From positions 450,001-482,000 of the forward strand of contig NZ_CP010904.1 in assembly GCF_001017655.1 (NCBI RefSeq): DNA of 32,000 nucleotides. The letters run 5' to 3'. The notes beneath the pieces were generated by a model. The model searched no databases and had not been told where the DNA came from. It saw nothing but the letters and a program-made list of their open reading frames with translations. The stretch comes from Kiritimatiella glycovorans (GTDB lineage Bacteria > Verrucomicrobiota > Kiritimatiellia > Kiritimatiellales > Kiritimatiellaceae). Made by a program: the position numbers and the translations under genes. Shown here one piece after another: positions 978-32,000 of this stretch; the first letter of the stretch is position 1, and the number at the start of each line of letters is the position of its first letter.

Positions 978-1802
978 ATGATATCGCCCGTGATCGATCG
1001 CGTGCAATACGGGTACGCCTGTTTCGACGAAACGAGCCACCCCTACGAGCGGCTGCACACCCATCCGGATCTCGAACTGGGAATGCTTTCCGGCGGTGCG
1101 GTCACCGCCATGATCGCCGGCCGGCGCTACCGGTTTGGCGGGGGTGAGATCGTGGCCTTCTGGGCCGGGCTTCCGCATGGGCCGGTCGAGGTGGAGGGGT
1201 CGCCCTGTGCGCACAACCTCTGCGTCCCGATGGATCGGCTGCGCTCATGGAATCTCCCCGTCGCGTTTATCTCCGCTCTCTACCGCGGACGGGTCTTCAG
1301 GCTGCACCGCACGCACCCCGCCGCGAACTGGGTGGAGTGGAAACAGCTTCTCGACGGAGAGGATGATACGGGCCGCACCATCGCCTCACTCGAGATCAAC
1401 GCCCTGCTGCTTCGAATGATCCGCCACCATCAATTCGTTCGCAGCGCGCACGATAAAAACGGGACTCCGACGAACCTGCGCTGCTACCAGGAGATCGCCA
1501 CGTATATCGCGGCGCACAAGAGCGATCCGATTACGGTGGGGGACATTCTGAAGCACGCCTCGGTGCACCCGAAGTACGCGATGCGTATCTTCAAACAGAG
1601 CTGCGGAATGACGATTCATGAATATCTCGTCCTGCAGCGCATGAATACCGCGCGCCATCTCCTGACCACCACCGACCGGAATGTCACCGACATCGCCTTC
1701 GAGTCGGGCTTCGGTTCGGTCAGCCGGTTCTATGATGCCTTTTCTTCCGCGCATGGCTGTACGCCGGGCGAATACCGCCGCCGCTTCCTGAACGCGGGAT
1801 AA
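978..1802 (+). CDS. AraC/XylS-family transcriptional regulator (cupin sensor domain plus double HTH)
   Basis: The N-terminal region is cupin-like (HTHPDLELGMLSGG...GEIVAFWAGLPHG). The C-terminal region is an AraC HTH (ITVGDILKHASVHPKYAMRIFKQSCGMTIHEYLVLQRMNTARHLL...VTDIAFESGFGSVSRFYDAFSSAHGCTPGEYRR). A GGAGGAGG Shine-Dalgarno lies just upstream of ATG 978. The longest ORF starts at GTG 942 and overlaps the transporter stop codon. Confidence 0.85.
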   Translation: MISPVIDRVQYGYACFDETSHPYERLHTHPDLELGMLSGGAVTAMIAGRRYRFGGGEIVAFWAGLPHGPVEVEGSPCAHNLCVPMDRLRSWNLPVAFISALYRGRVFRLHRTHPAANWVEWKQLLDGEDDTGRTIASLEINALLLRMIRHHQFVRSAHDKNGTPTNLRCYQEIATYIAAHKSDPITVGDILKHASVHPKYAMRIFKQSCGMTIHEYLVLQRMNTARHLLTTTDRNVTDIAFESGFGSVSRFYDAFSSAHGCTPGEYRRRFLNAG

Positions 1803-1825
1803 CCCTAACCGCTGTGGTGGTTCAT

Positions 1826-2042
1826 CTCCGGCGGGACGGCTTCCACGCCGTCCGAAAAGAGAGATCACAAATCCTGGAGGGACGGCTTCCACGCCGTCCG
1901 AAACGTATGATCACGTACGCCCTGGAGGGACGGCTGCCACGCCGTCCGTAACGTATGATCAGGTACGCCCTGGAGGGACGGCTTCCACGCCGTCCGAAAA
2001 GAGAGATCACGAATCCTGGAGGGACGGCTTCCACGCCGTCCG
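1826..2042 (+). repeat. Tandem array of 5 REP-like palindromic units (type A)
   Basis: There are five direct copies of CCTGGAGGGACGGCT[T/G]CCACGCCGTCCG at 1826-1854 (head degenerate), 1873-1900, 1921-1948, 1969-1996 and 2015-2042, with a period of 46-48 bp. The core is a 7-bp stem GGACGGC/GCCGTCC with a 6-nt loop. The ~20-nt linkers fall into two recurring types, AAAAGAGAGATCAC[A/G]AAT and [A/T]AACGTATGATCA[C/G]GTACG. Both linker types contain GATC. Confidence 0.9.
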
Positions 2043-2093
2043 TAAGGATGCCTTCAACCCCGCCCCCATTCACCCTTAAACCAAGGGAAACAC

Positions 2094-2849
2094 ATGGATG
2101 CTGGACAAATTAATAAAAATGACCCGCGACGGGATGGGCCCCGCCCGGGAAAGGAGGGACGTAATGGAAGCCGTGCCTCCAGGGAGAAGCCTGGCGAAAT
2201 GGCCTCCACGCGGTCCCAAGAATTGCAACCGGACCGAAAGACTCCGGCCCACACGCCGGTATATGAAACCGGAAATCGCGCTATCATTATATTTCTCACC
2301 GTCTGCACAAAGAACCGTCACCGCAAACTCGCGTGTGATGAAATACACTCGCTCCTGCTCAATGCCTGGAGTCTGGCGGATCGTTGGGTTGTCGGGCGGT
2401 ACCTGATTATGCCGGATCATCTACACCTCTTTTGCGCGCCGGGGATCTGGCCGCCTTCACCGGCGAGAAAATGGGTTGAATATTGGAAGGGGGCGGTGGC
2501 CCGAGCCTTGAAAGGGCGCGGCCCGCTCGTGGAGGGGAGGGGACGGGGTGGAACCCTGGGACGGGGTGGAACCCGTCCCTCCAAAGCAACCGAAGCGACG
2601 GCTGCCACGCCGTCCGTAACGTATGATCAGGTACGCCCTGGAGGGACGGCTTCCACGCCGTCCATAAAGAAGAAATGGCCGAGTCCCTTCTGGCAACGTG
2701 ACTGTTGGGACAGGCAGTTACGTCGCGGTCAGAGCTACAGCGAAAAATGGGCGTATGTCCAAAATAATCCCGTTCGGGCGGGGCTGTGTGCGACTCCTGA
2801 AGAATGGCCTTTCCAGGGATGCGTAACGGATTTGATGTGGCATGACTGA
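2094..2849 (+). CDS. REP-associated tyrosine transposase (RAYT; IS200/IS605 TnpA-like Y1 HUH enzyme) carrying an in-frame REP-derived insertion
   Basis: The first beta strand reads RAIIIFLTVCTKNR. The HUH motif is IMPDHLHLF (H109/H111). FWQRDCWDRQL follows, and the catalytic-Tyr helix is WAYVQNNPVRAGL (Y221). The spacing between HUH and Tyr is about 110 aa. It becomes about 62 aa, which is canonical, once the REP-derived segment (aa ~144-191) is removed. The start is uncertain: ATG 2094 gives the longest ORF, while ATG 2199 (M36) gives a more canonical N-terminus. Residues 1-45 are encoded by decayed REP sequence. Confidence 0.8.
   Translation: MDAGQINKNDPRRDGPRPGKEGRNGSRASREKPGEMASTRSQELQPDRKTPAHTPVYETGNRAIIIFLTVCTKNRHRKLACDEIHSLLLNAWSLADRWVVGRYLIMPDHLHLFCAPGIWPPSPARKWVEYWKGAVARALKGRGPLVEGRGRGGTLGRGGTRPSKATEATAATPSVTYDQVRPGGTASTPSIKKKWPSPFWQRDCWDRQLRRGQSYSEKWAYVQNNPVRAGLCATPEEWPFQGCVTDLMWHD
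2156..2216. repeat. Decayed inverted REP doublet overlapping the 5' end of the RAYT ORF
   Basis: GGGACGTAATGGAAGCCGTGCCTCC-AGGGAGAAGCCTGGCGAAATGGCCTCCACGCGGTCC is colinear with the doublet at 2892-2952 (GGGACGGGGTGGAACCCGTCCCTCC-AGGAGAAGCCCGGCGAAATGGCTTCCACGTTGTCC). Its hairpin potential is largely lost. Confidence 0.55.
2531..2663. repeat. Composite REP doublet (REPIN-like) located inside the RAYT coding sequence
   Basis: The element starts with a partial arm, GGGGACGGGGTGGAACCC (2538-2555). A reverse-orientation REP follows, GGGACGGGGTGGAACCCGTCCCTCC (2558-2582). Next is a forward REP with a degenerate head, GACGGCTGCCACGCCGTC (2597-2614). Then comes the type-2 linker TAACGTATGATCAGGTACG and a perfect forward REP, CCTGGAGGGACGGCTTCCACGCCGTCC (2637-2663). 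The architecture matches the element at 2851-2997. Confidence 0.85.
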
Positions 2850-2850
2850 A

Positions 2851-3021
2851 GGTGGAACCGGACGGGCTGGAACCGGACGGGGTGGAACCCGGGGACGGGG
2901 TGGAACCCGTCCCTCCAGGAGAAGCCCGGCGAAATGGCTTCCACGTTGTCCGAAAAGAGAGATCACGAGTCCTGGAGGGACGGCTTCCACGCCGTCCATA
3001 ACCAATGATCACGTACGCCCT
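2851..3021. repeat. REP cluster immediately 3' of the RAYT stop codon: stuttered arm repeats, one reverse REP, one decayed forward REP and one intact forward REP
   Basis: Three stuttered arm-plus-loop copies of GACGGG[C/G]TGGAACC lie at 2851-2891. The reverse REP lies at 2892-2916. A decayed forward copy ends at 2952. The linker AAAAGAGAGATCACGAGT follows, then the intact forward REP at 2971-2997, then the linker remnant ATAACCAATGATCACGTACGCCCTG ending at 3021. Confidence 0.85.
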
Positions 3022-3034
3022 GAATTTCCGCCTG

Positions 3035-4594
3035 TTACCCGGGAGCCGGGCAGTAGAGGTTCCTGTTTTTCTTAACCTGCCCGGCGTCGCCCTCGGCGGG
3101 GATCGCCGCGCGCACGGCGTCCCATCCCTCAAGCAATCGGTCGATCAGCGTCTCGACCACATCGGCATACGCCGGGTCTGCGGCGCGGTTGCGGTTTTCC
3201 TGCGGGTCGATCGCGTGGTCGTAGAGTTCGACGGAATCAATGGTGATCTCGTCGCGCGATTTCGGCAGCGGTCCGGGATTGCGCGGGGGCGCTTCGATCC
3301 ACAGGACCAGCCGGTACCGGTCGGTGCGCATGGCGTAGCCGGCGACTCCTTCGTTACGGCGCCCCATCACGCTGAAGGCCGCGGGCTTCCAGGCGCGATC
3401 GGGATCATCGAGCAGCGGAGCCATGCTGGTGCCGTGCAGGTGCTCCGGCTTATCCAGCCCGCACAGATCGCACAGGGTGGGGTAGAGGTCGACCAGTTCG
3501 ACGAGCGCGTCGCTCTCGCCGAGCGAACGGCCGGGCGGTGAGACGATCATCGCCGTGCGCGTATCGAGTTCGCAGTTGGAGAGCTTGCTCCACGCGTCGT
3601 GTTCGCCGAGCTTCCAGCCGTGATCGCCCCAGAGCACCACCACGGTGTTTTCCCGCAGCCCCAGGCGGTCGAGTTCCCGCAGGAGTTTGCCAATCTGGGC
3701 GTCGACGAAACTTACGCAGGCGCGGTAGCCGTGGATCAGTTTTTTCTGCATGGCGATATCGAGATTCCCCGTGTCGGTGTACTGCCCGAGCTCAAATCGG
3801 GGGTAGATCGCATAGGGCGGGGCGTCGATCGGATAGAACTGATTGTCCGGCAGCTCGATCGCCTCGCGGTCATAAAGATCCCAGTACCTCTTCGGCGCGA
3901 CAAAGGGGAGGTGCGGTTTAATGAATCCGGCGGCGAGGAAGAAGGGGCGGTTGCGCAATTCGCGCAGTTTAGCGATGGCGCGCGCCGCGATCTTTCCGTC
4001 GTAGAGCGTTTCGTCATCCACGTCCGGCGCCTCGGTGGAGAGCGCCGTCACAAAATGGTTCGTCCATTCGGACACGGGCACGCCCAGTTTCTTCGCCTGC
4101 GGCGCGAAATCCTTCTCGGCCGCCTCGATCCCCTCCGGCGTGTAATAGTACCGCGGGCCGGGATAGTAGTGCGGTTCCGACCAGCTCGTGTCCGGGTTCA
4201 TGTCCTGTCCCGGGCCGGCTTCTGCGAAACAGGGGTGGTAGATTTTACCCATCCCCGCCGCGTAATAGCCGTTGGTTTTGAACCATTCCGACAGGTGGGG
4301 GCGGCGATTCGGGTGGCCGGGCCGGATGCCGCTCATCAGGCTCTGACGCGAGGGTGCGCAGTGTGAGAACTGGCAGTAGGCCCGTGAGAAGCGCATCCCG
4401 CGTTCCGCCAGCGCGTCGATGTGCGGACTGTGGACTTCATCGTTTCCGTAACAGTCCAGCTCCGGCCGCAAGTCGTCGACCGCGATGAAGAGGACATTGA
4501 GCTGTTGGCCGGGCTTCGCACTCGCCGCCCGGCCGCCTGCCGCTGTCAGAGCCGAGAGGGCCGTGCCCCTCGCCAGAAAAGAACGTCGTTTCAT
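3035..4594 (-). CDS. S1-family sulfatase, iduronate-2-sulfatase-like, exported via Tat
   Basis: The twin-arginine signal is MKRRSFLARGTALSALTAAGGRAASA. The N-terminal sequence VLFIAVDDLRPELDCYGNDEVHSPHIDALAERG closely resembles IDS-type sulfatases. The formylglycine motif is SHCAPSRQSLMSG (C-x-P-x-R). A GGAGGAAGG RBS lies upstream of the ATG. Confidence 0.9.
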   Translation of the reverse strand: MKRRSFLARGTALSALTAAGGRAASAKPGQQLNVLFIAVDDLRPELDCYGNDEVHSPHIDALAERGMRFSRAYCQFSHCAPSRQSLMSGIRPGHPNRRPHLSEWFKTNGYYAAGMGKIYHPCFAEAGPGQDMNPDTSWSEPHYYPGPRYYYTPEGIEAAEKDFAPQAKKLGVPVSEWTNHFVTALSTEAPDVDDETLYDGKIAARAIAKLRELRNRPFFLAAGFIKPHLPFVAPKRYWDLYDREAIELPDNQFYPIDAPPYAIYPRFELGQYTDTGNLDIAMQKKLIHGYRACVSFVDAQIGKLLRELDRLGLRENTVVVLWGDHGWKLGEHDAWSKLSNCELDTRTAMIVSPPGRSLGESDALVELVDLYPTLCDLCGLDKPEHLHGTSMAPLLDDPDRAWKPAAFSVMGRRNEGVAGYAMRTDRYRLVLWIEAPPRNPGPLPKSRDEITIDSVELYDHAIDPQENRNRAADPAYADVVETLIDRLLEGWDAVRAAIPAEGDAGQVKKNRNLYCPAPG

Positions 4595-4666: not shown

Positions 4667-6481
4667 TTACCGATGGCATCCCGGACGGACGATCTCGCCG
4701 CCCACGTTGAACGTGAGACGCCGTCTCTCCACGTCCGTGGTATTCTTCTCGTAGAGTGGCCAGGCGTCGAAGTTGTACGCCCAGGCCATCATCGTCGTGA
4801 TGCACTGCCAGCAACTCCGTTCGCGGCCGGAGTCCGACTGAAACTTGTGCTGGGCGGCCTGCAGCGCCGTGCGCGCCAGGGCCTCGTGGATCCGGTTGAG
4901 CAGGTCGTTGGAGCATGTGAAGTGAAACGTCGGTTCGAGGTCGTTCGCGATTGAGAGGCCCTTGAGCATGTCGAGATCGGGGGCTTCGGGGAGGCCTTCG
5001 ACCTGCACGTAACGAAAGGCGTGGCGCGTGTACGACGGGGTCCACGTCTCGCCTCCGCCCTTGCAGACGTAGACGCCGACCTGGTTCGCGGCCATGCGGC
5101 CGATTTCGTGACGAAGTCCGTCCCGGCCGAGCGATTCGACGTAACGCAGGGTAAGGGTTGTCCCGGCGGGGGCGTCGATGTTTAACCGTGCGTATCCGAA
5201 GAGCTGGACGCCCATATCGAAGACCCATACGCCGGGCTTCGGATTCGTGAGCGCAACCGGATCGGCGGTCTCCACGACGCGAAGCGGCGGTACGGTCTGG
5301 GCCTTGAGCGCGGGAACGGGCGGATCGATCATTTCCGCTTCGTGCCAGCCGGTATCATCGAATCCGTGCCGCGTCCACCCGGTCATCTCGCGCCGCGCGT
5401 CATAGACGTTGCCGGCGAAGGTGTTATTTTTCAGCAGCGGTCCGTCCATCGTGCAGGTCCAGTTCCCGTCGCTGACGACCCGGCGGAGGGTGCCGTCATC
5501 GCCCTCGAGTTCGAGCTGCGCGATCAGCCCGTGGCGGCCGTGGCCCGCCGGTTCGCCCGGCCGGGCGAAGGCGACGGTCTGGCGGTAGAAGCCGTCGCCG
5601 AGCCGGATGCCGATCGCGTTCTCGCCCGGGCGAACGAAGTCGCTGACATCGTACGTCACATAGTACGCGCGCCGATCATAATCGGTCTGAGCCGGATCGA
5701 GTTCGCGCGCATCCAAGTCCTGGCCGTTGATCCGGATGGTCTGGCATCCGAGGCCGCTGACGTAGAGGGTGGCGCGGTGGACGGGTGCGGTCACCCGGAA
5801 GGTACGCCGGAACATCGGCGCGGGCTGAAGCTCCTGAAGCCGCTCCTCTCCCCACGCCCAGCCGTCGATCTCTTTCGGAATGAAATACCGCACGTGGATA
5901 CGCGTCGCTTCGATCCAGCGGTCGATGGCGTCCGAGGCCGGGACATGCGAGGGGGCGGCCCAGTGGTCCCACGGGATCGTCCGCGTCCAGGGACGAAAGA
6001 GGTCGCTTTCGGTCCACGCCGCTTCCGGGACCCCGATCCATTGCGCCTTCCAATCCTCTGCCTCGAGCAGACCCATGCTCCACCTGGAAGGTACGCTCCA
6101 GGGGCCCGCCTTTCCGCGTTCGTCCCAGGCGCGGACTTTCCAGTAGACCCTCTGTTTGCTCGAGAGGGGACGGCCCGCGTAAGTGATTTCGAGCGTTTCC
6201 CCCGAGGCCACGCGGCCGCTGTCCCAGAGGTCGCCCCGGTCCCGTTCCAGAAGATCGGGCGTCGAGGCGACCAGTACGCGATACGCCGTCTGATGCGCCC
6301 CGCGCACGGGCGGCTCTTCCGCGCGCAGCGTCCAACTCAGCCGGGGGTGCGTCGCATCGGTTCCAAGCGGCCGGTCGCGATATTCACAGCGCAGGTTCAC
6401 CGGCTCCAGTGCCGCCGATGCGAGGCCCGCCCCGAGAAGAAGGCACAGGCCACTTCGTACGGTGATCTGTACGATTTTCAT
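4667..6481 (-). pseudogene. GH78 alpha-L-rhamnosidase remnant: N-terminal and beta-sandwich domains are present, and the catalytic (alpha/alpha)6 domain is truncated
   Basis: The signal peptide is MKIVQITVRSGLCLLLGAGLASAA. The N-terminal region is classic GH78 (LRCEYRDRPLGTDATHPRLSWTL...QTAYRVLVAS...LWDSGRVASGETLEITYAGRPLSSKQRVYWKVRAWD). The central region VWVFDMGVQLFGYARLNI...FRYVQVEGLP...FHFTCSNDLLNRIH is also present. The ORF ends about 55 aa after the point where the six-hairpin catalytic domain should begin. The motif there is degenerate: SDSGRERSCWQC, where TDCPQR(D)ERLGWTGD is expected. The sulfatase gene starts only 73 bp downstream, so there is no room for the missing ~350-400 aa. 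An alternative ATG lies at 6517. Confidence 0.6.
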
Positions 6482-6619
6482 GTTTCGAATTGTATCACAT
6501 GCCCGTGTGATGGACATTCCTGTTTTGGACCCGGATCATTCCCGCAGGGTAATCGCTGAATCGTGTGATCCGGATGGAACGGGGAGGGGAACCATCCTCG
6601 AGAGTTGAGTACGTGTACC

Positions 6620-7376: not shown

Positions 7377-9686
7377 TCAGCGATTGGGATGGGTTCGGAC
7401 CTGGTAATAGATCTGCGGGCGAGTCCGAAAATCTTCGGGAAGGACAAAATAATTCGGGGTTTTCTGGTGATAGGCCTCCAGTTCGTACCAGACCGGTGAA
7501 ACAATATTGGTTGTATAGAGAAGCGAGAACCAGTGGGCTTCGCAGGAGGGGTCGTCGATTTCGGGGAAATAGATCCGCCAATCGTCCGCGCGTTCGATTT
7601 TCGTGATACGAAGCCTGTCAGAAGAATCCTGAGGGTCGGTGCCCGCATAAGCCTCGCCTCGATTGTTGACTCCGTCCCGGTCGGCGTCCTCAGCCGCGTC
7701 GTCGCGCGTTAACTCGAGGCCGTGCAGGTATTCCCATTCATCGCCCATTCCGTCCCCGTCGGAATCCGCCCATATCTTCAGGTATTCGTAAGCCCCGATG
7801 TCTTGCGCCGCCGTGCCGTTGTTATCCCCGTCCAGCGGTCGCGGGTATCCCCGGTAATCCACCGTCACCACCGACCCGGTTGCGGCGTCGATACAGGGAG
7901 AGGCGCTGTCGAGCCCGTAGTATGTAAAGGCCAGAAAAAGTCGCGGATCCTCCTCGAGGTTGTTCGTCCCGTTGGTGGGCGCCGTGCAGCAGTACTCAAG
8001 CGTGGACAAGGCATGATTGGTTGAATTCCCGACGTAGGTAAGCCGGTTGCCCCAGAGGATCGAGTTGGTTGCTGTGCAGTCGTAGAGGCCGCCGCCCCCG
8101 TGGGTATGGGCCTTGTTTTCCGTCACGGTACAGTGAAGCAATGTTCCGCTGTGTACGCCTCCGCCGGCATCCATGGCGTGGTTCCGGAAAATCTCGCAGT
8201 TGACCAGCGCCGTACCGTACGCCCCGCCGCCGAGCCCGCTTACCAGTGTCGTGCCGTATCCGCGTTCCGCCATGTTGTCGTGGATACGGCAGCGTTCGGC
8301 CGTGCCTTCGTACAGCCCCCCGCCGTTACCCGCCGTGGCCGCCGTGTTGGACGCGACATCACATTGCACTAGCCGCGACTGATACGCGCCGCCGCCCCGG
8401 CCATAATAGTCACGATCCGCTCTGTAGCCCGTTCCGGCCACGTTCTGAATGATCGTACAGCCCGCCAGATCGCCTCCGCTGCAGCCCCCGCCCCAGTGCG
8501 CGCGGTTGCCGACGACGAGACAGTCGTAGAGGTCAGAGGAGAGCGCCCCGCCGCCCCGGGTGTGTTCCGCGGCATTGGTGGCGTAGTTCGCCCGCAGCGT
8601 ACAGTTGCTGAGCGTGGAATCATAACTGCCGCCGCCGCGGTACCAGGCCATATTGGTTTGAATGATACTGTCAAAGACGGTGCACTGGCTCACCCCGCCC
8701 CCCAGGCCGTTGTAGACCCCGGTAGAGGGATTGTCTCCCACTTCATTCGCGCCGATCACGGTTTCATGAATTTCGCATTGGTAGGCGCCGCCACCTTTTC
8801 CCCAGCCGTAATTCTCCGTAATCGTACCGCCGTAGATCATGCAGTTCGCCGCCCCGCCGCCCCGGCTGGCGGTATTGCCGTTGACGCTGCAGTCCTGCAG
8901 CATGCTCTCCCGCGCGCCGCCGCCGGCATACTCGGCGTCGTTGGCCGTGAAGGTGCACTGGATATTCGTCCCCCCCCACGCACCCCCCCCGCCATAATCA
9001 AAACCATATTGAGTCTGGTCATTGTGGGCCAGAATCGTATTGGTCGCATAGGATCGACCCACTCCGCCGCCGTGGTAAAAGGCTGTATTGCTGGTTACGA
9101 CACAGCTGATCAGACGACATTCGTCGGCGCCTCCTCCGTGTGCCGAGGAGCATCGGCGGATCTCACATTCGGTTGCGGTCACTCCAAAAAGCCCGCCACC
9201 TATGAACGCGTGGCAGTCTTCGACGATGCAGTCGATTACCTCCGCTGCAGAATCGCCCCGCACCCCGCCACCTTCGGCCCCGCTGGCCATTCCGTCGGTC
9301 AGGGTAAACCCCTGCAGTACGGCGTTACTGCAGATGTCAGCACACCGTACCGAGCCGGCTCCCGCGATAAACGTGTTCGCGGGGCCCTCCTCCGAGCGGA
9401 CGACCACCGGATGGTCCAGAAGCACACGAGTCATTTCGCCGTCGCCGGCCGCTCGGGATCCGGCGTCATAGGTCCCGGCCGCCACGCGGATCGTGTTGTG
9501 GTCGTCGGCCTCATCGATGGCCTGCTGGATTTCGTGGGCGGCGGTATCCCACGTCTCGTAGGGCGGGGTGGGTGTGGGGCTGTCGATATCGACATACAGG
9601 GTGCGGGCCGCGGCGGAAAACATGGCCGATAAGATCAGGACCCCGCAGAAAGCCCGGGTGTAAAGACGAGTGGGCCGATGCATCAT
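7377..9686 (-). CDS. Secreted right-handed beta-helix repeat protein (Pmp-like / choice-of-anchor-Q-like) with Ca-binding TSP3-like repeats and a C-terminal beta-rich module
   Basis: The signal peptide is MMHRPTRLYTRAFCGVLILSAMFSAAA, and an AGGAGG RBS is present. About 17 repeats of ~22-25 aa are centred on GGG[AGV] (HGGGADEC, AGGGARES, RGGGAANC, KGGGAYQC, RGGGAYQS and others). The C-terminal region reads DSDGDGMGDEWEYLHGL...DADRDGVNNRGEAYAGTDPQD. Confidence 0.75.
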   Translation of the reverse strand: MMHRPTRLYTRAFCGVLILSAMFSAAARTLYVDIDSPTPTPPYETWDTAAHEIQQAIDEADDHNTIRVAAGTYDAGSRAAGDGEMTRVLLDHPVVVRSEEGPANTFIAGAGSVRCADICSNAVLQGFTLTDGMASGAEGGGVRGDSAAEVIDCIVEDCHAFIGGGLFGVTATECEIRRCSSAHGGGADECRLISCVVTSNTAFYHGGGVGRSYATNTILAHNDQTQYGFDYGGGGAWGGTNIQCTFTANDAEYAGGGARESMLQDCSVNGNTASRGGGAANCMIYGGTITENYGWGKGGGAYQCEIHETVIGANEVGDNPSTGVYNGLGGGVSQCTVFDSIIQTNMAWYRGGGSYDSTLSNCTLRANYATNAAEHTRGGGALSSDLYDCLVVGNRAHWGGGCSGGDLAGCTIIQNVAGTGYRADRDYYGRGGGAYQSRLVQCDVASNTAATAGNGGGLYEGTAERCRIHDNMAERGYGTTLVSGLGGGAYGTALVNCEIFRNHAMDAGGGVHSGTLLHCTVTENKAHTHGGGGLYDCTATNSILWGNRLTYVGNSTNHALSTLEYCCTAPTNGTNNLEEDPRLFLAFTYYGLDSASPCIDAATGSVVTVDYRGYPRPLDGDNNGTAAQDIGAYEYLKIWADSDGDGMGDEWEYLHGLELTRDDAAEDADRDGVNNRGEAYAGTDPQDSSDRLRITKIERADDWRIYFPEIDDPSCEAHWFSLLYTTNIVSPVWYELEAYHQKTPNYFVLPEDFRTRPQIYYQVRTHPNR

Positions 9687-9814: not shown

Positions 9815-9946
9815 TTCTCATTATGGCTTCACCCTTTTCGGTCGGGGTGGCACCCGACCCTCCCAGTGCCCGAAAATGCGTCGGATATCGACTCGGGAGG
9901 GACGGCTGCCACGCCGTCCGCGGTCGGAATGCGGCCATAATGAGAA
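9815..9946. repeat. Head-to-head REP pair (9840-9863 reverse, 9895-9920 forward) nested inside a 13-bp perfect inverted repeat
   Basis: The reverse REP is GGTCGGGGTGGCACCCGACCCTCC, with stem GGTCGGG/CCCGACC. The forward REP is GGGAGGGACGGCTGCCACGCCGTCCG. The flanking inverted repeat is TTCTCATTATGGC (9815-9827) and GCCATAATGAGAA (9934-9946). Confidence 0.8.
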
Positions 9947-25276: not shown

Positions 25277-25543
25277 GGAGGGACGGGTTACACCCCATCC
25301 GTCGGGTTAACCTTGAAGGGACGGGTTATACCCCGTCCGGTTCCTTTGGAGAAACGGGTTACACCCCGTCCGTTTCTCCTGGAGGGACGGGTTACACCCC
25401 GTCCGTTTCTCCTGGAGGGACGGGTTACACCCCGTCCGTTTCTCCTGGAGGGACGGGTTACACCCCGTCCTCTTTGCGGTCGGCGTTGGAGGGACGGGTT
25501 ACACCCCGTCCTCTTTTGCGGTCGGCGTGGAAGCCGACCCTCC
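25277..25543 (+). repeat. REP array type C: 7 forward units (core period 33 bp) plus 1 reverse-orientation unit
   Basis: The forward units are GGAGGGACGGGTTACACCCCGTCC at 25277, 25315, 25348, 25381, 25414, 25447 and 25488; the first three are slightly degenerate. The stem is GGACGGG/CCCGTCC and the loop is TTACAC. The linker is only GTTTCTCCT. The terminal reverse unit is GGTCGGCGTGGAAGCCGACCCTCC at 25520-25543. The array fills the gap between the sulfatase stop (25237) and the next gene's ATG (25588). Confidence 0.9.
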
Positions 25544-30017: not shown

Positions 30018-32000
30018 ATGAAGTTGTATCAGGGAATGATGGCGATGGCGGCGCTCCTGCTGGCGGGGGCGGCTTCGGGGGCCGAAGATCGGGCGGGGAC
30101 GTATCCGACGCATCTCACCCTGTTGCGCAGCGGAGAGGTCCGGCCGCGGGGGTGGATGCTCGAACAGATGCGCGGCGATCTGGAGGAGGGCTACATCGCG
30201 CACTATGACGAGATCAGCCCCATGGCCGCGCAGGACATCTTCGTGGACAACAAGTCGAACTACGAAGAGCCGAACCTTCTCCATTCGCCGATCAAGCGGA
30301 AGGTCAAACCCTGGTGGTGCGGAGAGGTCGAAGGACTGTGGAAGGAGTCAGTTACGCGTCTCGCTTTTCTGACCGGTCAGGATCATTACAGCGAGATCGC
30401 GCGCGGCTGGATCGAGCGAATCATGGCGGACCAGCCGGAGAGCGGTTATCTCGGCATGTACCGTCCGGAAGTCCGTCTCCAGCACCGTCAGGAAAACGGT
30501 GAGCTGTGGACGATGACGCTCGAGATGCTGATGATGCTCTCCTTCTACGAGTACACGGGCGATGCCCGGGTGCTCGATTCCGTGACACGCGGCGTCGATC
30601 TGGTTATGGAGACCTACGGCCCGCACAACTACTACTTCGGCTGGCACTACGGCTCGAGCGGCGGGGGCTGGACACACGGGCTCGCGTTCATGGATATCCT
30701 CGAATGGCTGTACCGGATCACGGGCGAGGACCGCTATGCCGACTTCGCGGAGTTCCTGTACCGCGAGGACTGGTCGCCGAAAGGTGAGATCAGTGTCGCG
30801 CCGCTGCTCGACGAGAATCACACCTTTTCCACCCACGGCGCCCACCTCGGCGAACAGTTCATGGTGCCATTTTTTGTGAACGCCGTTCGGCCCGCGTCGG
30901 ACCTGGAGGAGGCCACGGCCAACGCGATGGACATCCTGGAGTACCACTTCACCCCCGGCGGATGCATCCAGAGTGCCGAGGGGGTGGAGCACCGTCGCGG
31001 GAATGCGGACTGCGCGAAGGAGTACTGCACGATCCTTCAGTTCACGCGGGCGTTGAATAAGGTGTCGATGTTCACGCTCGACCGCCGCGCCGCAGAATGG
31101 GTGGAGCGGATCGCCTGCAACGCCGCCCAGGCCGCGCGCTTTCACCCCTACCTCAAGGCCGTGCAGTACACCTCCAGCGATAACCGCCTTGAAATCAACG
31201 AGGCCGGGCGCGGGCATCGCGACGCCTATTCCGCCTGCCACGGCGCGCCCTGCTGCGCCATGAGCGGCGCGCGCTACATATCCTATTTCGTCGAAAGCAT
31301 GTGGATGCGCCGCACGGATCACCCGGGACTCGTCCTGATGCAGTACGGGCCGTGCGAAGTGCGGACCCGGCTCGGCGGCACCGGCGTGGCGATTCGTGAG
31401 GAGACGGTTTATCCGTTTTCCGACCGGGTGCGCCTCGCCATCGAAACGGAAACCCCCGTCGAGTTCACCCTCTACCTCCGCCGACCCGCATCGGCGCGGC
31501 GCATGCAGGTGAACGCGCCGGACGGCGCGAAGGTCCGCGATGAGGGAGGGTTTCTCGAGATCCGCCGGCGCTGGCGTACGGGGGACACCGTGGAGCTGGT
31601 CTTCGACTACCCGGTCGAAAAGATCATGCAGCCTGCCTCGGAGACGGTCTGGAGTGACGAGGGAGGCTGCTATCTCAAACGCGGGCCGCTGGTGTTCGCG
31701 CTTCCTCTCGAACATACTATCGAGCCGATTGAGGAGTATTTCGATTCCGGTCATCACCGGTTCGATGTGAAAACCCTCGATGCCACGGGGTGGAACTACG
31801 CGATCGATCCGGACGAACCGTTTGAACTCGTGCGCACAGAATCCGCCGGAGAAAAACACCCCTGGGTCGAGCCGCCTCTCCGACTGCGCGGTCGGCTCGT
31901 CACGCGCGGAGGAGAGAAGGTCGAAGTCGAACTCGTTCCGCTCGGGTCGACCAAGGTCCGGCGGGTTGTGTTTCCGCTCCATTCATCGTTAACCGACGAA
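30018..32000 (+). CDS. GH127-like (DUF1680 / beta-L-arabinofuranosidase family) glycoside hydrolase; 3' end lies outside the window
   Basis: This ORF is not in the supplied ORF track. My hand translation from ATG 30018 (RBS AGGGGGAG) gives 661 codons with no stop up to the window edge. The signal peptide is MKLYQGMMAMAALLLAGAASGAED. Family-like blocks are KPWWCGEVEGLWKESVTRLAFLTGQD, QPESGYLGMY and YEYTGDARVLD. AKEYCT and GAPCCAMSGARY resemble the E-x-C and C-C zinc/catalytic motifs of GH127. Confidence 0.7.
   Translation, partial: MKLYQGMMAMAALLLAGAASGAEDRAGTYPTHLTLLRSGEVRPRGWMLEQMRGDLEEGYIAHYDEISPMAAQDIFVDNKSNYEEPNLLHSPIKRKVKPWWCGEVEGLWKESVTRLAFLTGQDHYSEIARGWIERIMADQPESGYLGMYRPEVRLQHRQENGELWTMTLEMLMMLSFYEYTGDARVLDSVTRGVDLVMETYGPHNYYFGWHYGSSGGGWTHGLAFMDILEWLYRITGEDRYADFAEFLYREDWSPKGEISVAPLLDENHTFSTHGAHLGEQFMVPFFVNAVRPASDLEEATANAMDILEYHFTPGGCIQSAEGVEHRRGNADCAKEYCTILQFTRALNKVSMFTLDRRAAEWVERIACNAAQAARFHPYLKAVQYTSSDNRLEINEAGRGHRDAYSACHGAPCCAMSGARYISYFVESMWMRRTDHPGLVLMQYGPCEVRTRLGGTGVAIREETVYPFSDRVRLAIETETPVEFTLYLRRPASARRMQVNAPDGAKVRDEGGFLEIRRRWRTGDTVELVFDYPVEKIMQPASETVWSDEGGCYLKRGPLVFALPLEHTIEPIEEYFDSGHHRFDVKTLDATGWNYAIDPDEPFELVRTESAGEKHPWVEPPLRLRGRLVTRGGEKVEVELVPLGSTKVRRVVFPLHSSLTDE

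What the first reader, a model, noticed from the sequence alone, without database searches (positions are those of the whole stretch)
1826..3021. REP/RAYT system with an unusual repeat type and head-to-tail array architecture
The ORF at 2094-2849 has the HUH motif (IMPDHLHLF) and the catalytic-Tyr helix (WAYVQNNPVRAGL) of IS200/IS605-type Y1 transposases, arranged as in REP-associated tyrosine transposases. It is surrounded by its presumptive substrates. Five tandem hairpin units and a decayed doublet lie upstream, and another doublet plus a forward unit starts 2 nt after the stop codon. The same repeat family recurs at 9840-9920 and 25277-25543, each time at a boundary between gene blocks. 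The unit is a conserved CCTGGAGG head followed by a 7-bp stem and 6-nt loop. It is organised in direct head-to-tail arrays with 33-48 bp periods and two recurring GATC-containing linker types. This differs from the classical GTAG-headed REP/BIME of enterobacteria. The host also looks like a PVC-group organism, where I am not aware of such systems having been characterised.
Basis: partly seen in the sequence, partly recalled or inferred. Interest (0 to 1): 0.7.

Follow-up and report, generated by a model that had tools for sequence, protein, structure and literature searches.

The report
REP hairpin repeats with their transposase
This is an ordinary bacterial "REPtron": a domesticated single-strand DNA nuclease gene (RAYT/TnpA-REP) in Kiritimatiella glycovorans, surrounded and even interrupted in-frame by the short hairpin repeats it presumably copies. 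It is a known kind of system, with a slightly different recognition tag (GGAG instead of GTAG).

Summary
A 24-nt unit (GGAG + 7-bp stem + TTCCAC-type loop) matches 20 times in the window where about 0 are expected, at three loci. The hairpin is supported by compensatory stem changes.

The ORF 2094-2849 is 100% identical to the K. glycovorans protein annotated "Transposase". It has an invariant HUH motif (H109/H111). Its Tyr221 aligns with the catalytic Y115 of E. coli TnpA-REP (4ER8), which is also the best structural match. Its best HMM is NCBIfam "REP-associated tyrosine transposase", although below the curated cut-off.

The "decayed doublet" (2157-2219) also lies inside the annotated ORF. 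Many close homologues carry REP-derived inserts at the same loop.

This feature is already published for TnpA-REP subclass 2.4 (Quentin 2018). So are REPs in PVC bacteria, head-to-tail arrays and intragenic REPs (Di Nocera 2013).

The modestly new points are the GGAG guide and the presence of the same REP core in more than 50 assemblies carrying many different taxon labels. Genome-wide dispersal and single-copy status in K. glycovorans could not be tested. Verdict: new member of a known kind, low to moderate interest.

The parts
1830..2041 (+). Direct (head-to-tail) array of five REP units: 1830-1853 (head decayed to GGCG), 1876-1899, 1924-1947, 1972-1995 and 2018-2041. They are separated by alternating GATC-containing linkers of 22 and 24 nt.
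2094..2849 (+). RAYT / TnpA-REP gene as annotated (251 aa; 100% identical to the K. glycovorans protein named 'Transposase'). An alternative start at ATG 2199 (M36) would give 216 aa and matches where short homologues begin.
2157..2219 (.). Decayed inverted REP doublet (reverse unit 2157-2180, decayed forward unit about 2183-2219). It lies in the N-terminal extension of the annotated ORF, which is predicted to be disordered.
   Evidence: (D3, D4, I6-I10)
2418..2426 (+). HUH motif codons (H109-L110-H111). Both histidines are invariant in 56 homologues.
2541..2663 (.). REP cluster inside the RAYT ORF, in frame. It comprises a partial reverse unit 2541-2558, reverse unit 2559-2582, forward unit 2592-2615 (decayed head), linker B, and forward unit 2640-2663. 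It encodes most of the disordered loop (residues about 141-198) between helix 124-139 and strand 200-208. It is 96-98% identical to the flanking clusters.
   Evidence: (D2, D4)
2754..2756 (+). Codon of Tyr221, which aligns with the catalytic Y115 of E. coli TnpA-REP. It is invariant in 56 homologues.
2851..3021 (.). Downstream REP cluster starting 2 nt after the stop codon. It comprises tandem half-units 2851-2892, reverse unit 2893-2916, a decayed forward unit about 2926-2953, forward unit 2974-2997, and a linker-B-like tail. It folds as a long imperfect hairpin (z -6.0).
9840..9919 (.). Inverted REP doublet (9840-9863 reverse, 9896-9919 forward) with the GGAG tags facing inward. It lies in a divergent intergenic region and is enclosed by a 13-bp inverted repeat (9815-9827 / 9934-9946).
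25277..25543 (.). Direct array of seven forward REP units (TTACAC loop variant, period 33-41) followed by one reverse unit at 25520-25543. It lies between a sulfatase gene and a GH106 rhamnosidase gene.

Best explanation
This is a REPtron. ORF 2094-2849 encodes a REP-associated tyrosine transposase (RAYT, also called TnpA-REP), an HUH/Y1 single-strand DNA nuclease. The 24-nt units are its cognate REPs.

Proposed mechanism, inferred by analogy with E. coli TnpA-REP:
1. When the DNA is single-stranded, each unit folds into a perfect 7-bp hairpin.
2. The protein recognises the hairpin foot (G:C pairs), the conserved TTCCAC-type loop, and the GGAG tetranucleotide 5' of the foot.
3. A3 and G4 of that guide pair with a CT dinucleotide. 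Here a CT usually sits immediately upstream (CCT|GGAG).
4. Tyr221 cleaves there, forming a 5'-phosphotyrosine intermediate, with the metal ion held by H109/H111.
5. Strand transfer then moves or duplicates REPs.

The direct arrays, with their conserved linkers and half-unit duplications, most likely grow by slippage or unequal recombination and gene conversion between clusters.

The REP cluster inside the gene is a tolerated passenger. It encodes a disordered surface loop between the DNA-binding helix and strand beta4. It is kept in frame because the enzyme is still under selection.

Shown here: the repeat family, the hairpin covariation, the catalytic-residue and fold match, and the in-frame inserts in homologues. 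Inferred: binding, the cleavage site, mobilisation, and how the arrays grow.
For: Repeat family:
- It matches 20 times in the window where about 0 are expected.
- In the set of 50 better-paired distinct units, 94% of stem cells pair and 5 of 7 pairs show compensatory changes. The covariation score is 0.606 against 0.14 in shuffles and at most 0.08 with slid partners.
- GGAG is the head in 200 of 212 hairpins found without any head constraint.
- T occupies position -1 in 71% of units.

Protein:
- NCBIfam NF047646 'REP-associated tyrosine transposase' is the best model, with E 1.4e-18. Short homologues pass its cut-off at 82-91 bits.
- H109, H111, W200, Q201, D206, R210, Y221 and N225 are invariant in 56 homologues.
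- phmmer aligns W200/Q201/R210/Y221/N225 with W94/Q95/R104/Y115/N119 of 4ER8. Y115 and N119 are catalytic-site residues (PMC3479197). W94, Q95 and R104 are well-conserved residues involved in GTAG-guide recognition (PMC6006769; PMC8266576).
- The AlphaFold core has pLDDT above 90, and the best PDB match is 4ER8_A (E 1.9e-6, TM 0.66), followed by the IS608 and ISDra2 TnpA structures.

Architecture:
- REP clusters lie on both sides of the gene and inside it.
- Inverted pairs fold into long hairpins (z -5.4, -6.0, -4.6).
- The flanking genes are an AraC regulator and a sulfatase. No tnpB is present.

In-frame inserts:
- 4 of the 5 RAYT loci found by DNA pattern alone carry REPs at the same loop, and all 4 are in frame.
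- 26 of 109 homologues have loops of at least 35 aa, and 23 of those carry recognisable REP-derived peptides such as GGTASTPS, GGTRPS or GGTGPS.
- The same three-cluster layout is seen in L123 and L124.

Literature:
- In E. coli only A3 and G4 of GTAG are available to specify the CT cleavage site (PMC3479197). Both bases are retained in GGAG.
Against: - The protein scores below the curated cut-offs: NF047646 gives 67.2 bits, or 70.9 with the insert removed, against a cut-off of 80. Pfam Y1_Tnp gives 13.3 bits against 23.
- No biochemical data exist for this clade.
- The genome-wide copy number of the REP and of the RAYT in K. glycovorans could not be obtained.
- In two related loci the REPs are found only at or just beside the RAYT gene within 20 kb, all within about 0.8 kb of it. 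Some members of the clade may therefore have very small REP populations.
- The 58-residue insert sits next to the strand that contacts the guide, so some loss or change of activity cannot be excluded.
- The start codon is uncertain (2094 or 2199).
Confidence: 0.8

Rival explanations
1. This is an autonomous or recently autonomous IS200/IS605-like insertion sequence. On this reading the hairpin clusters are simply its left and right ends, and the whole unit (gene plus REP clusters) moves as one, including between phyla.
For: - The same layout (upstream cluster, HUH half, internal cluster, Tyr half, downstream cluster) recurs in homologous loci from differently labelled taxa.
- In L123 all REPs within 20 kb lie at the RAYT gene. 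In L124 all but one nearby cluster do.
- The identical 24-mer occurs in assemblies carrying many different taxon labels.
- The IS608 and ISDra2 transposases are the next-best structural matches.
Against: - REP arrays occur at 9840-9919 and 25277-25543 with no transposase nearby.
- In one Sumerlaeia MAG at least 18 separate 8-kb blocks carry the REP.
- The P0001 cluster has one member on one contig, so no second copy at 90% identity or more is on record.
- No tnpB is present.
- The best HMM and the best structural match are TnpA-REP, not IS200.
- Only 2 of 2.9 million viral contigs carry the pattern.
Confidence: 0.1
2. The RAYT is an inactivated relic, disrupted by the REP insertion. On this reading the repeats now persist and expand only through host recombination or slippage, or because they are useful as RNA or DNA structural elements.
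For: - A 58-residue disordered insert lies between the HUH and Tyr motifs.
- Half-unit tandem duplications and nearly identical REP-plus-linker modules point to slippage or gene conversion.
- HMM scores are sub-threshold.
Against: - All 20 positions that are invariant in the family are retained in this protein.
- The reading frame stays open through inserts of different length, orientation and frame in 4 of 4 independently found loci. Chance gives at most 1/3 per locus.
- The core folds with pLDDT above 90.
- Quentin 2018 reports in-frame REP inserts as a regular feature of a whole TnpA-REP subclass.
Confidence: 0.08
3. The arrays are something other than REPs: a CRISPR-like array, intrinsic terminators, a structured RNA family, or a repeat-protein coding region.
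For: The units are regularly spaced hairpin repeats. They are free of stop codons in all six frames.
Against: - The 'spacers' are 9-24 nt long and are themselves repeated.
- No Rfam family matches the window.
- No terminator-like T-tracts are found in the RAYT locus scanned, 1700-3200.
- Units occur in both orientations and between genes.
- The units are depleted inside long open frames relative to base coverage, 28% against 73%.
Confidence: 0.02

Closest known systems
E. coli TnpA-REP (RAYT, PDB 4ER8) with REP/BIME elements (Ton-Hoang 2012; Messing 2012; Corneloup 2021)
   Same: - HUH plus a single catalytic Tyr on the C-terminal helix.
- The same fold.
- Conserved W/Q/D/R residues around beta4.
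- A hairpin with a 5' tetranucleotide at its foot whose 3rd and 4th bases are A and G.
- A CT dinucleotide close to the hairpin.
- A gene flanked by its REPs.
   Different: - The guide is GGAG, not GTAG.
- The stem is a short perfect 7-bp stem without a bulge, and the loop is conserved. This is more like the group 3 REPs, where loop bases are essential.
- Sequence similarity to 4ER8 is only weak: Foldseek reports 14% identity over the structural alignment, and phmmer gives E 0.006.
- The clade has a conserved N-terminal motif (PxRKxPAH).
- A REP-encoded loop lies inside the protein.
TnpA-REP subclass 2.4 (Bertels RAYT group 4), Quentin et al. 2018 (PMC6006769)
   Same: [quoted passage not shown]
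- The WQ motif and a Y-x-x-N-N-P motif.
- Scattered distribution over many phyla.
- No C-terminal extension domain.
   Different: - The HuH motif is DH[LI]H rather than NH[IFV]H.
- The guide is GGAG rather than GT[AG]G.
- In the model the insert lies between alphaC and beta4, whereas the paper places the variable 2.4 domain between beta3 and alphaC.
- Membership of this subclass was not tested phylogenetically.
GTAG-tagged REP superfamily in PVC bacteria (Opitutus terrae GTAG-17 to -20; Rhodopirellula baltica), Di Nocera et al. 2013 (PMC3733652)
   Same: - Short tagged stem-loops.
- Sub-families with compensatory stem variants.
- Head-head, tail-tail and head-tail dimers, and tandemly reiterated clusters.
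- Frequent intragenic in-frame copies.
- Association with RAYT genes.
   Different: The tag has G at position 2 (GGAG). The described degenerate tags are GYAG, GYRG, GTRG, GTMG and GTGG. The string 'GGAG' does not occur in the main text of that paper.
REPIN-RAYT systems of Pseudomonas (Bertels and Rainey)
   Same: Inverted REP doublets fold into long hairpins next to a RAYT that is presumably single-copy.
   Different: In the K. glycovorans window, long direct arrays predominate over doublets. Vertical inheritance and population structure were not examined.

Membership tests
RAYT / TnpA-REP (HUH Y1 nuclease) | HUH metal-binding motif | tested here: met
   H109-L-H111 is present and invariant in 56 homologues. 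It aligns with PEHMH of 4ER8, in which the HUH motif is H59/H61.
RAYT / TnpA-REP (HUH Y1 nuclease) | Single catalytic Tyr on the C-terminal helix, followed by N at +4 (Y-x-x-x-N-P) | tested here: met
   Y221 and N225 align with Y115 and N119 of 4ER8. Both are invariant.
RAYT / TnpA-REP (HUH Y1 nuclease) | TnpA-REP / IS200-type fold | tested here: met
   In the AF2 model the core has pLDDT above 90. The top Foldseek PDB hit is 4ER8_A with E 1.9e-6 and TM 0.66.
RAYT / TnpA-REP (HUH Y1 nuclease) | Score above the curated cut-off of the family HMM (NF047646; Pfam PF01797) | tested here: not met
   NF047646 gives 67.2 bits, or 70.9 with the insert removed, against a cut-off of 80. PF01797 gives 13.3 bits against 23. 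NF047646 is nevertheless the best model (E 1e-18), and the short homologues P0027, P0050, P0074 and P0104 pass at 82-91 bits. The clade sits at the edge of the model.
RAYT / TnpA-REP (HUH Y1 nuclease) | Gene flanked by REP hairpins that carry a conserved 5' tetranucleotide | tested here: met
RAYT / TnpA-REP (HUH Y1 nuclease) | The same REPs dispersed in extragenic DNA elsewhere in the genome | tested here: inconclusive
   Two further intergenic loci are present in the 32-kb window. The host chromosome could not be scanned. In other assemblies up to 18 separate blocks carry the REP.
RAYT / TnpA-REP (HUH Y1 nuclease) | Single copy per genome, not IS-like | not testable with these tools
   Only weak support is available. 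The P0001 cluster has 1 member on 1 contig, and no other K. glycovorans protein appears among the top 120 hits.
RAYT / TnpA-REP (HUH Y1 nuclease) | Hairpin- and guide-dependent cleavage and strand transfer of single-stranded REP DNA | not testable with these tools
   This needs biochemistry.
GTAG-tagged REP superfamily | Unpaired GT[AG]G tetranucleotide at the hairpin foot | tested here: not met
   The tag is GGAG in 200 of 212 hairpins, and GTAG in only 2. A3 and G4 are retained.
GTAG-tagged REP superfamily | Short stem-loop (stem 5-13 bp) with compensatory stem sub-families | tested here: met
   The stem is 7 bp. 5 of 7 pairs covary.
TnpA-REP subclass 2.4 (Bertels group 4) | [quoted passage not shown] | tested here: met
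   compared with PMC6006769
TnpA-REP subclass 2.4 (Bertels group 4) | Motifs NH[IFV]H / WQ / YIxNNP, and clustering with reference members | tested here: inconclusive
   The motifs here are DHLH / WQ / YVQNNP, so two of three fit. No reference sequences were available for a tree.
IS200/IS605 insertion sequence | Multiple near-identical copies, distinct left and right ends, often a tnpB gene | tested here: not met
   No tnpB is present; the neighbours are an AraC regulator and a sulfatase. REPs also occur without a transposase nearby. NF033573 IS200 scores only 12.9 bits.
CRISPR array | Unique spacers of about 26-72 nt between repeats, with cas genes nearby | tested here: not met
   The spacers are 9-24 nt and are themselves repeated. 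None of the ten neighbouring ORFs that were scanned matched a Cas family.

The most novel reading that the evidence does not exclude
The GGAG-REP/RAYT clade may be a distinct, horizontally spreading REPtron lineage. Its three-cluster layout, including the REP cluster at the alphaC-beta4 junction of the enzyme, would then be functionally required rather than a passenger. The internal cluster could serve as a self-target for autoregulation of the gene. Alternatively, it could encode a loop that retunes guide recognition from GTAG to GGAG. Either role would explain why head, loop and layout stay nearly identical across assemblies labelled as different phyla while the protein diverges to about 40-55% identity.
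Probability: 0.1. Interest if true: 0.55.

Novelty: new member of a known kind. Interest (0 to 1): 0.3.

Why it matters
It documents a REP/RAYT system in the only cultured, completely sequenced member of the Kiritimatiellota examined here.

It also shows that a simple REP type (GGAG guide, perfect 7-bp stem, TTCCAC loop) is shared by many PVC genomes and by some non-PVC ones.

The pair is compact and could extend in vitro work on how TnpA-REP enzymes read the guide tetranucleotide. Position 2 differs here, while the A3 and G4 bases that specify cleavage are kept.

For annotation, three practical points follow:
- The GGTASTPS/GGTRPS-type peptides and the long N-terminal extensions in these "transposases" are translated REPs.
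- Such genes score below the family HMM cut-offs.
- ORFs called across REP arrays are spurious.

None of this changes current understanding of REPtrons.

Tried and rejected
1. Counting REPs in the whole host genome.
   - The look-up of encoding contigs found none of four window proteins on record.
   - A protein search with six-frame REP-array peptides, meant to count annotated K. glycovorans ORFs lying over arrays, returned nothing at E <= 0.001.
   - A metagenome scan for the host-specific REP-plus-linker module found nothing.

2. At first I took the in-frame REP insert in the RAYT gene, shared by homologues, to be a new finding. It is already published (Quentin 2018, PMC6006769).

3. Phage carriage as a route for cross-phylum spread was rejected. 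Only 2 viral contigs match.

4. No Rfam family matched the window, and no terminator- or promoter-like site was found in the RAYT locus scanned, 1700-3200.

5. I considered whether the GGAGG head acts as a Shine-Dalgarno sequence for downstream genes. The gene after the 25277-25543 array has its own AGGAG unrelated to the REP, so I did not pursue this.

6. I looked for K. glycovorans or PVC entries in the Quentin 2018 supplements in order to assign a subclass. There were none.

7. The test of extragenic bias using stop-to-stop open frames is crude, because REP arrays are themselves free of stop codons.
Full report
**Source and observation.**
ORF 2094-2849 is 100% identical over its full length to a protein of Kiritimatiella glycovorans. 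That protein lies on a 2,949,723-bp contig and is annotated simply "Transposase". The window therefore comes from the L21-Fru-AB chromosome, described in PMC5148204.

The matches are:
- five forward units at 1830-2041;
- three units at 2559-2663;
- two at 2893-2997;
- an inverted pair at 9840-9919;
- seven forward units plus one reverse unit at 25277-25543.

TRF reports the two direct arrays with periods of 48 and 33. The two GATC-bearing linkers recur as REP-plus-linker modules that are 79-96% identical. The description is therefore correct, with two amendments. The "decayed doublet" at 2157-2219 also lies inside the annotated ORF.

**Anatomy of the unit.**
Each unit is GGAG, then a 7-bp perfect stem, then a 6-nt loop (TTCCAC, TGCCAC or TTACAC). 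In this genome it is usually preceded by CCT. A single unit folds as that hairpin.

The four stem variants in the window are all self-complementary. I then collected 67 distinct GGAG-N7-loop-N7 sequences from the window and 120 related loci. In this set, 35 pair at all 7 stem positions and 18 pair at 6.

For the formal covariation count I kept the 50 better-paired sequences, which is a selection bias. In that set 94% of cells pair, against 68% in shuffles and 30-54% with slid partners. Five of the 7 pairs show compensatory changes, and the covariation score is 0.606 against 0.14.

Hairpins found from loop plus perfect stem alone, with no head constraint, carry GGAG in 200 of 212 cases. The seed units of those loci had been selected with that head, so this count is partly biased.

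Inverted pairs fold into long imperfect hairpins with z-scores of -5.4, -6.0 and -4.6. No Rfam family matches the window, and the RAYT locus that was scanned (1700-3200) has no terminator-like site.

Outside the RAYT ORF the units lie between genes:
- between an AraC regulator and a sulfatase (convergent);
- between a hypothetical gene and a UPF0047 gene followed by PriA (divergent);
- between a sulfatase and a GH106 rhamnosidase (co-directional).

**The protein.**
- Pfam Y1_Tnp is only a weak hit (13.3 bits, cut-off 23).
- The best model is NCBIfam NF047646, "REP-associated tyrosine transposase". It scores E 1.4e-18 and 67.2 bits in two stretches, below the 80-bit cut-off.
- Deleting the insert in silico raises the score only to 70.9 bits. 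Short homologues score 75-91 bits, so the clade straddles the cut-off.
- In a 56-sequence alignment, H109, H111, W200, Q201, D206, R210, Y221 and N225 are invariant.
- phmmer aligns residues 199-242 with residues 93-136 of E. coli TnpA-REP (4ER8). This puts Y221 on the catalytic Y115 and N225 on the metal ligand N119. It puts W200, Q201 and R210 on W94, Q95 and R104, which are linked to guide recognition.
- The AlphaFold model (mean pLDDT 76.6) has a confident core: beta 66-72, helix 82-94, beta 98-105, beta 109-116 carrying HUH, helix 124-139, beta 200-208, and helix 215-228 carrying the Tyr. Residues 1-60 and 141-198 are disordered.
- Foldseek ranks 4ER8_A first (E 1.9e-6, TM 0.66), followed by the ISDra2, IS608 and IS200 transposases.

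**REPs inside the gene.**
The disordered loop 141-198 is mostly encoded by the REP cluster 2541-2663. Reverse units read as GRGGTRPS and forward units as GGTA(S/A)TPS. At the DNA level the cluster is 96-98% identical to parts of the two flanking clusters, which suggests recent conversion or duplication.

Close homologues carry variable inserts at the same loop, always after a K-G-x-G-P-L motif. They consist of GGTRPS, GGTASTPS or GGTGPS peptides. Of 109 homologues that could be anchored, 78 have a 12-16-residue loop and 26 have 35 residues or more. Of those 26, 23 carry a recognisable REP-derived peptide.

Five RAYT loci were recovered purely by DNA pattern. Four of them carry REP units at this site, in different orientations and reading frames, and all four are in frame. 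The fifth has REPs only on its flanks. The REP core has no stop codon in any of the six frames. Chance preservation of the frame is therefore about 1/3 or less per locus. This argues that the enzyme is under selection and that the loop is tolerated.

L123 and L124 show the same three-cluster layout: N-terminal, internal and downstream.

**What is already known.**
I first took the in-frame insert to be new. It is not. Quentin et al. [quoted passage not shown] They model the region as a peripheral extension (PMC6006769).

Di Nocera et al. 2013 describe several of the other features (PMC3733652):
- REPs in PVC bacteria (Opitutus terrae, Rhodopirellula baltica);
- head-head, tail-tail and head-tail dimers;
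- clusters reiterated in tandem together with flanking DNA;
- degenerate tags, including GTGG;
- many intragenic in-frame REPs.

JGI and NCBI already name homologues of this protein RayT.

What I could not find in the searchable literature is a GGAG-tagged REP family or any REP description for Kiritimatiellota.

**Mechanism.**
The mechanism is inferred by analogy with E. coli TnpA-REP. That enzyme binds the folded single-stranded REP and reads the 5' GTAG at its foot. It cleaves at a CT dinucleotide, and only A3 and G4 of the guide are free to specify that CT. It forms a 5'-phosphotyrosine intermediate with Y115 and can transfer strands (PMC3479197; PMC8266576).

For small, perfect-stem REPs (group 3), loop bases are essential.

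Here A3 and G4 are retained in GGAG. The loop and the G:C foot are the conserved parts, while the middle of the stem covaries. A CT usually sits directly 5' of the guide. I therefore propose the same chemistry, with Y221 and H109/H111 as the active residues.

The direct arrays contain conserved linkers. Half-unit tandem duplications are present at 2540-2574 and 2851-2907. Both features point to slippage, unequal recombination or gene conversion as the way the arrays grow. None of this has been tested biochemically.

**Distribution.**
They come from 50 assemblies with the following labels:
- Kiritimatiellia, Pontiellaceae, Verrucomicrobiota, Opitutaceae and Pelagicoccus;
- Victivallales and Lentisphaerae;
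- Phycisphaerales;
- Sumerlaeia (18 blocks in one MAG);
- two Desulfobacterota-type MAGs (8 and 6 blocks);
- Eisenbacteria and Anaerolineales.

A rough composition-based estimate gives at most about 6 chance matches in the whole collection.

The exact K. glycovorans 24-mer GGAGGGACGGCTTCCACGCCGTCC occurs under 13 named taxon labels, plus unclassified assemblies. The RAYTs found in the same loci are only 38-55% identical to the K. glycovorans protein. Each assembly tends to have its own dominant stem variant.

In these genomes, inverted neighbours (63) outnumber direct ones (27). The long direct arrays are therefore a local feature of K. glycovorans rather than a property of the family. MAG labels can be wrong, so the phylum breadth should be read with caution. 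Only 2 viral contigs match.

**Not resolved.**
The REP and RAYT copy numbers in the host chromosome could not be obtained. Two non-RAYT loci in 32 kb suggest dispersal, but that is an extrapolation. Subclass assignment, the true start codon (2094 or 2199) and activity also remain open.

**Verdict.**
This is a real and well-formed REPtron. It is a new member of a known kind with a minor guide variant, and it is of modest interest.

Noticed in passing
window 9815-9827 and 9934-9946: A perfect 13-bp inverted repeat (TTCTCATTATGGC / GCCATAATGAGAA) encloses the REP doublet at 9840-9919. The whole ~130-nt segment folds as one long hairpin in a divergent intergenic region. No other exact copy occurs in the window.
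   Followed up: partly
window 4667-6517 (-): This GH78-type alpha-L-rhamnosidase ORF has the N-terminal Ig, Bac_rhamnosid_N and concanavalin-like domains. No hit to the catalytic six-hairpin domain is found. The ORF ends 73 nt before the start of the neighbouring sulfatase gene (4594), so the gene may be truncated or frameshifted.
   Followed up: no
window 2183-2201; REP heads generally: The REP head GGAGG has the same sequence as a Shine-Dalgarno core. The alternative RAYT start ATG 2199 lies inside a decayed REP unit, about 12 nt downstream of GGGAGA.
   Followed up: partly
window 2540-2574 and 2851-2907: There are tandem duplications of half hairpins (loop plus one arm; periods 18 and 15) at the left edge of both reverse-unit clusters. 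They suggest replication slippage within REP clusters.
   Followed up: partly
L123 1-20825; L124 1-20744: In two of the nearest RAYT homologue loci, all REP units within 20 kb sit in, or within about 0.8 kb of, the RAYT gene. In L123 the gene lies among N6/N4 methyltransferase, AAA_21/DUF4276, DUF1016 and ResIII helicase genes, a context that resembles a defence island.
   Followed up: no
L046 3395-4162: In a Kiritimatiellae MAG, the RAYT internal insert reads the reverse REP units in a different frame (DGVEPVPP repeats). It also mixes in a second hairpin family with a CTCCG-type loop. The site is therefore conserved, but the encoded peptide is not.
   Followed up: partly
window 7377-9686 (-), 30348-31982 (-): These large ORFs (769 and 544 aa) have no Pfam hit at E <= 1e-5.
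   Followed up: no
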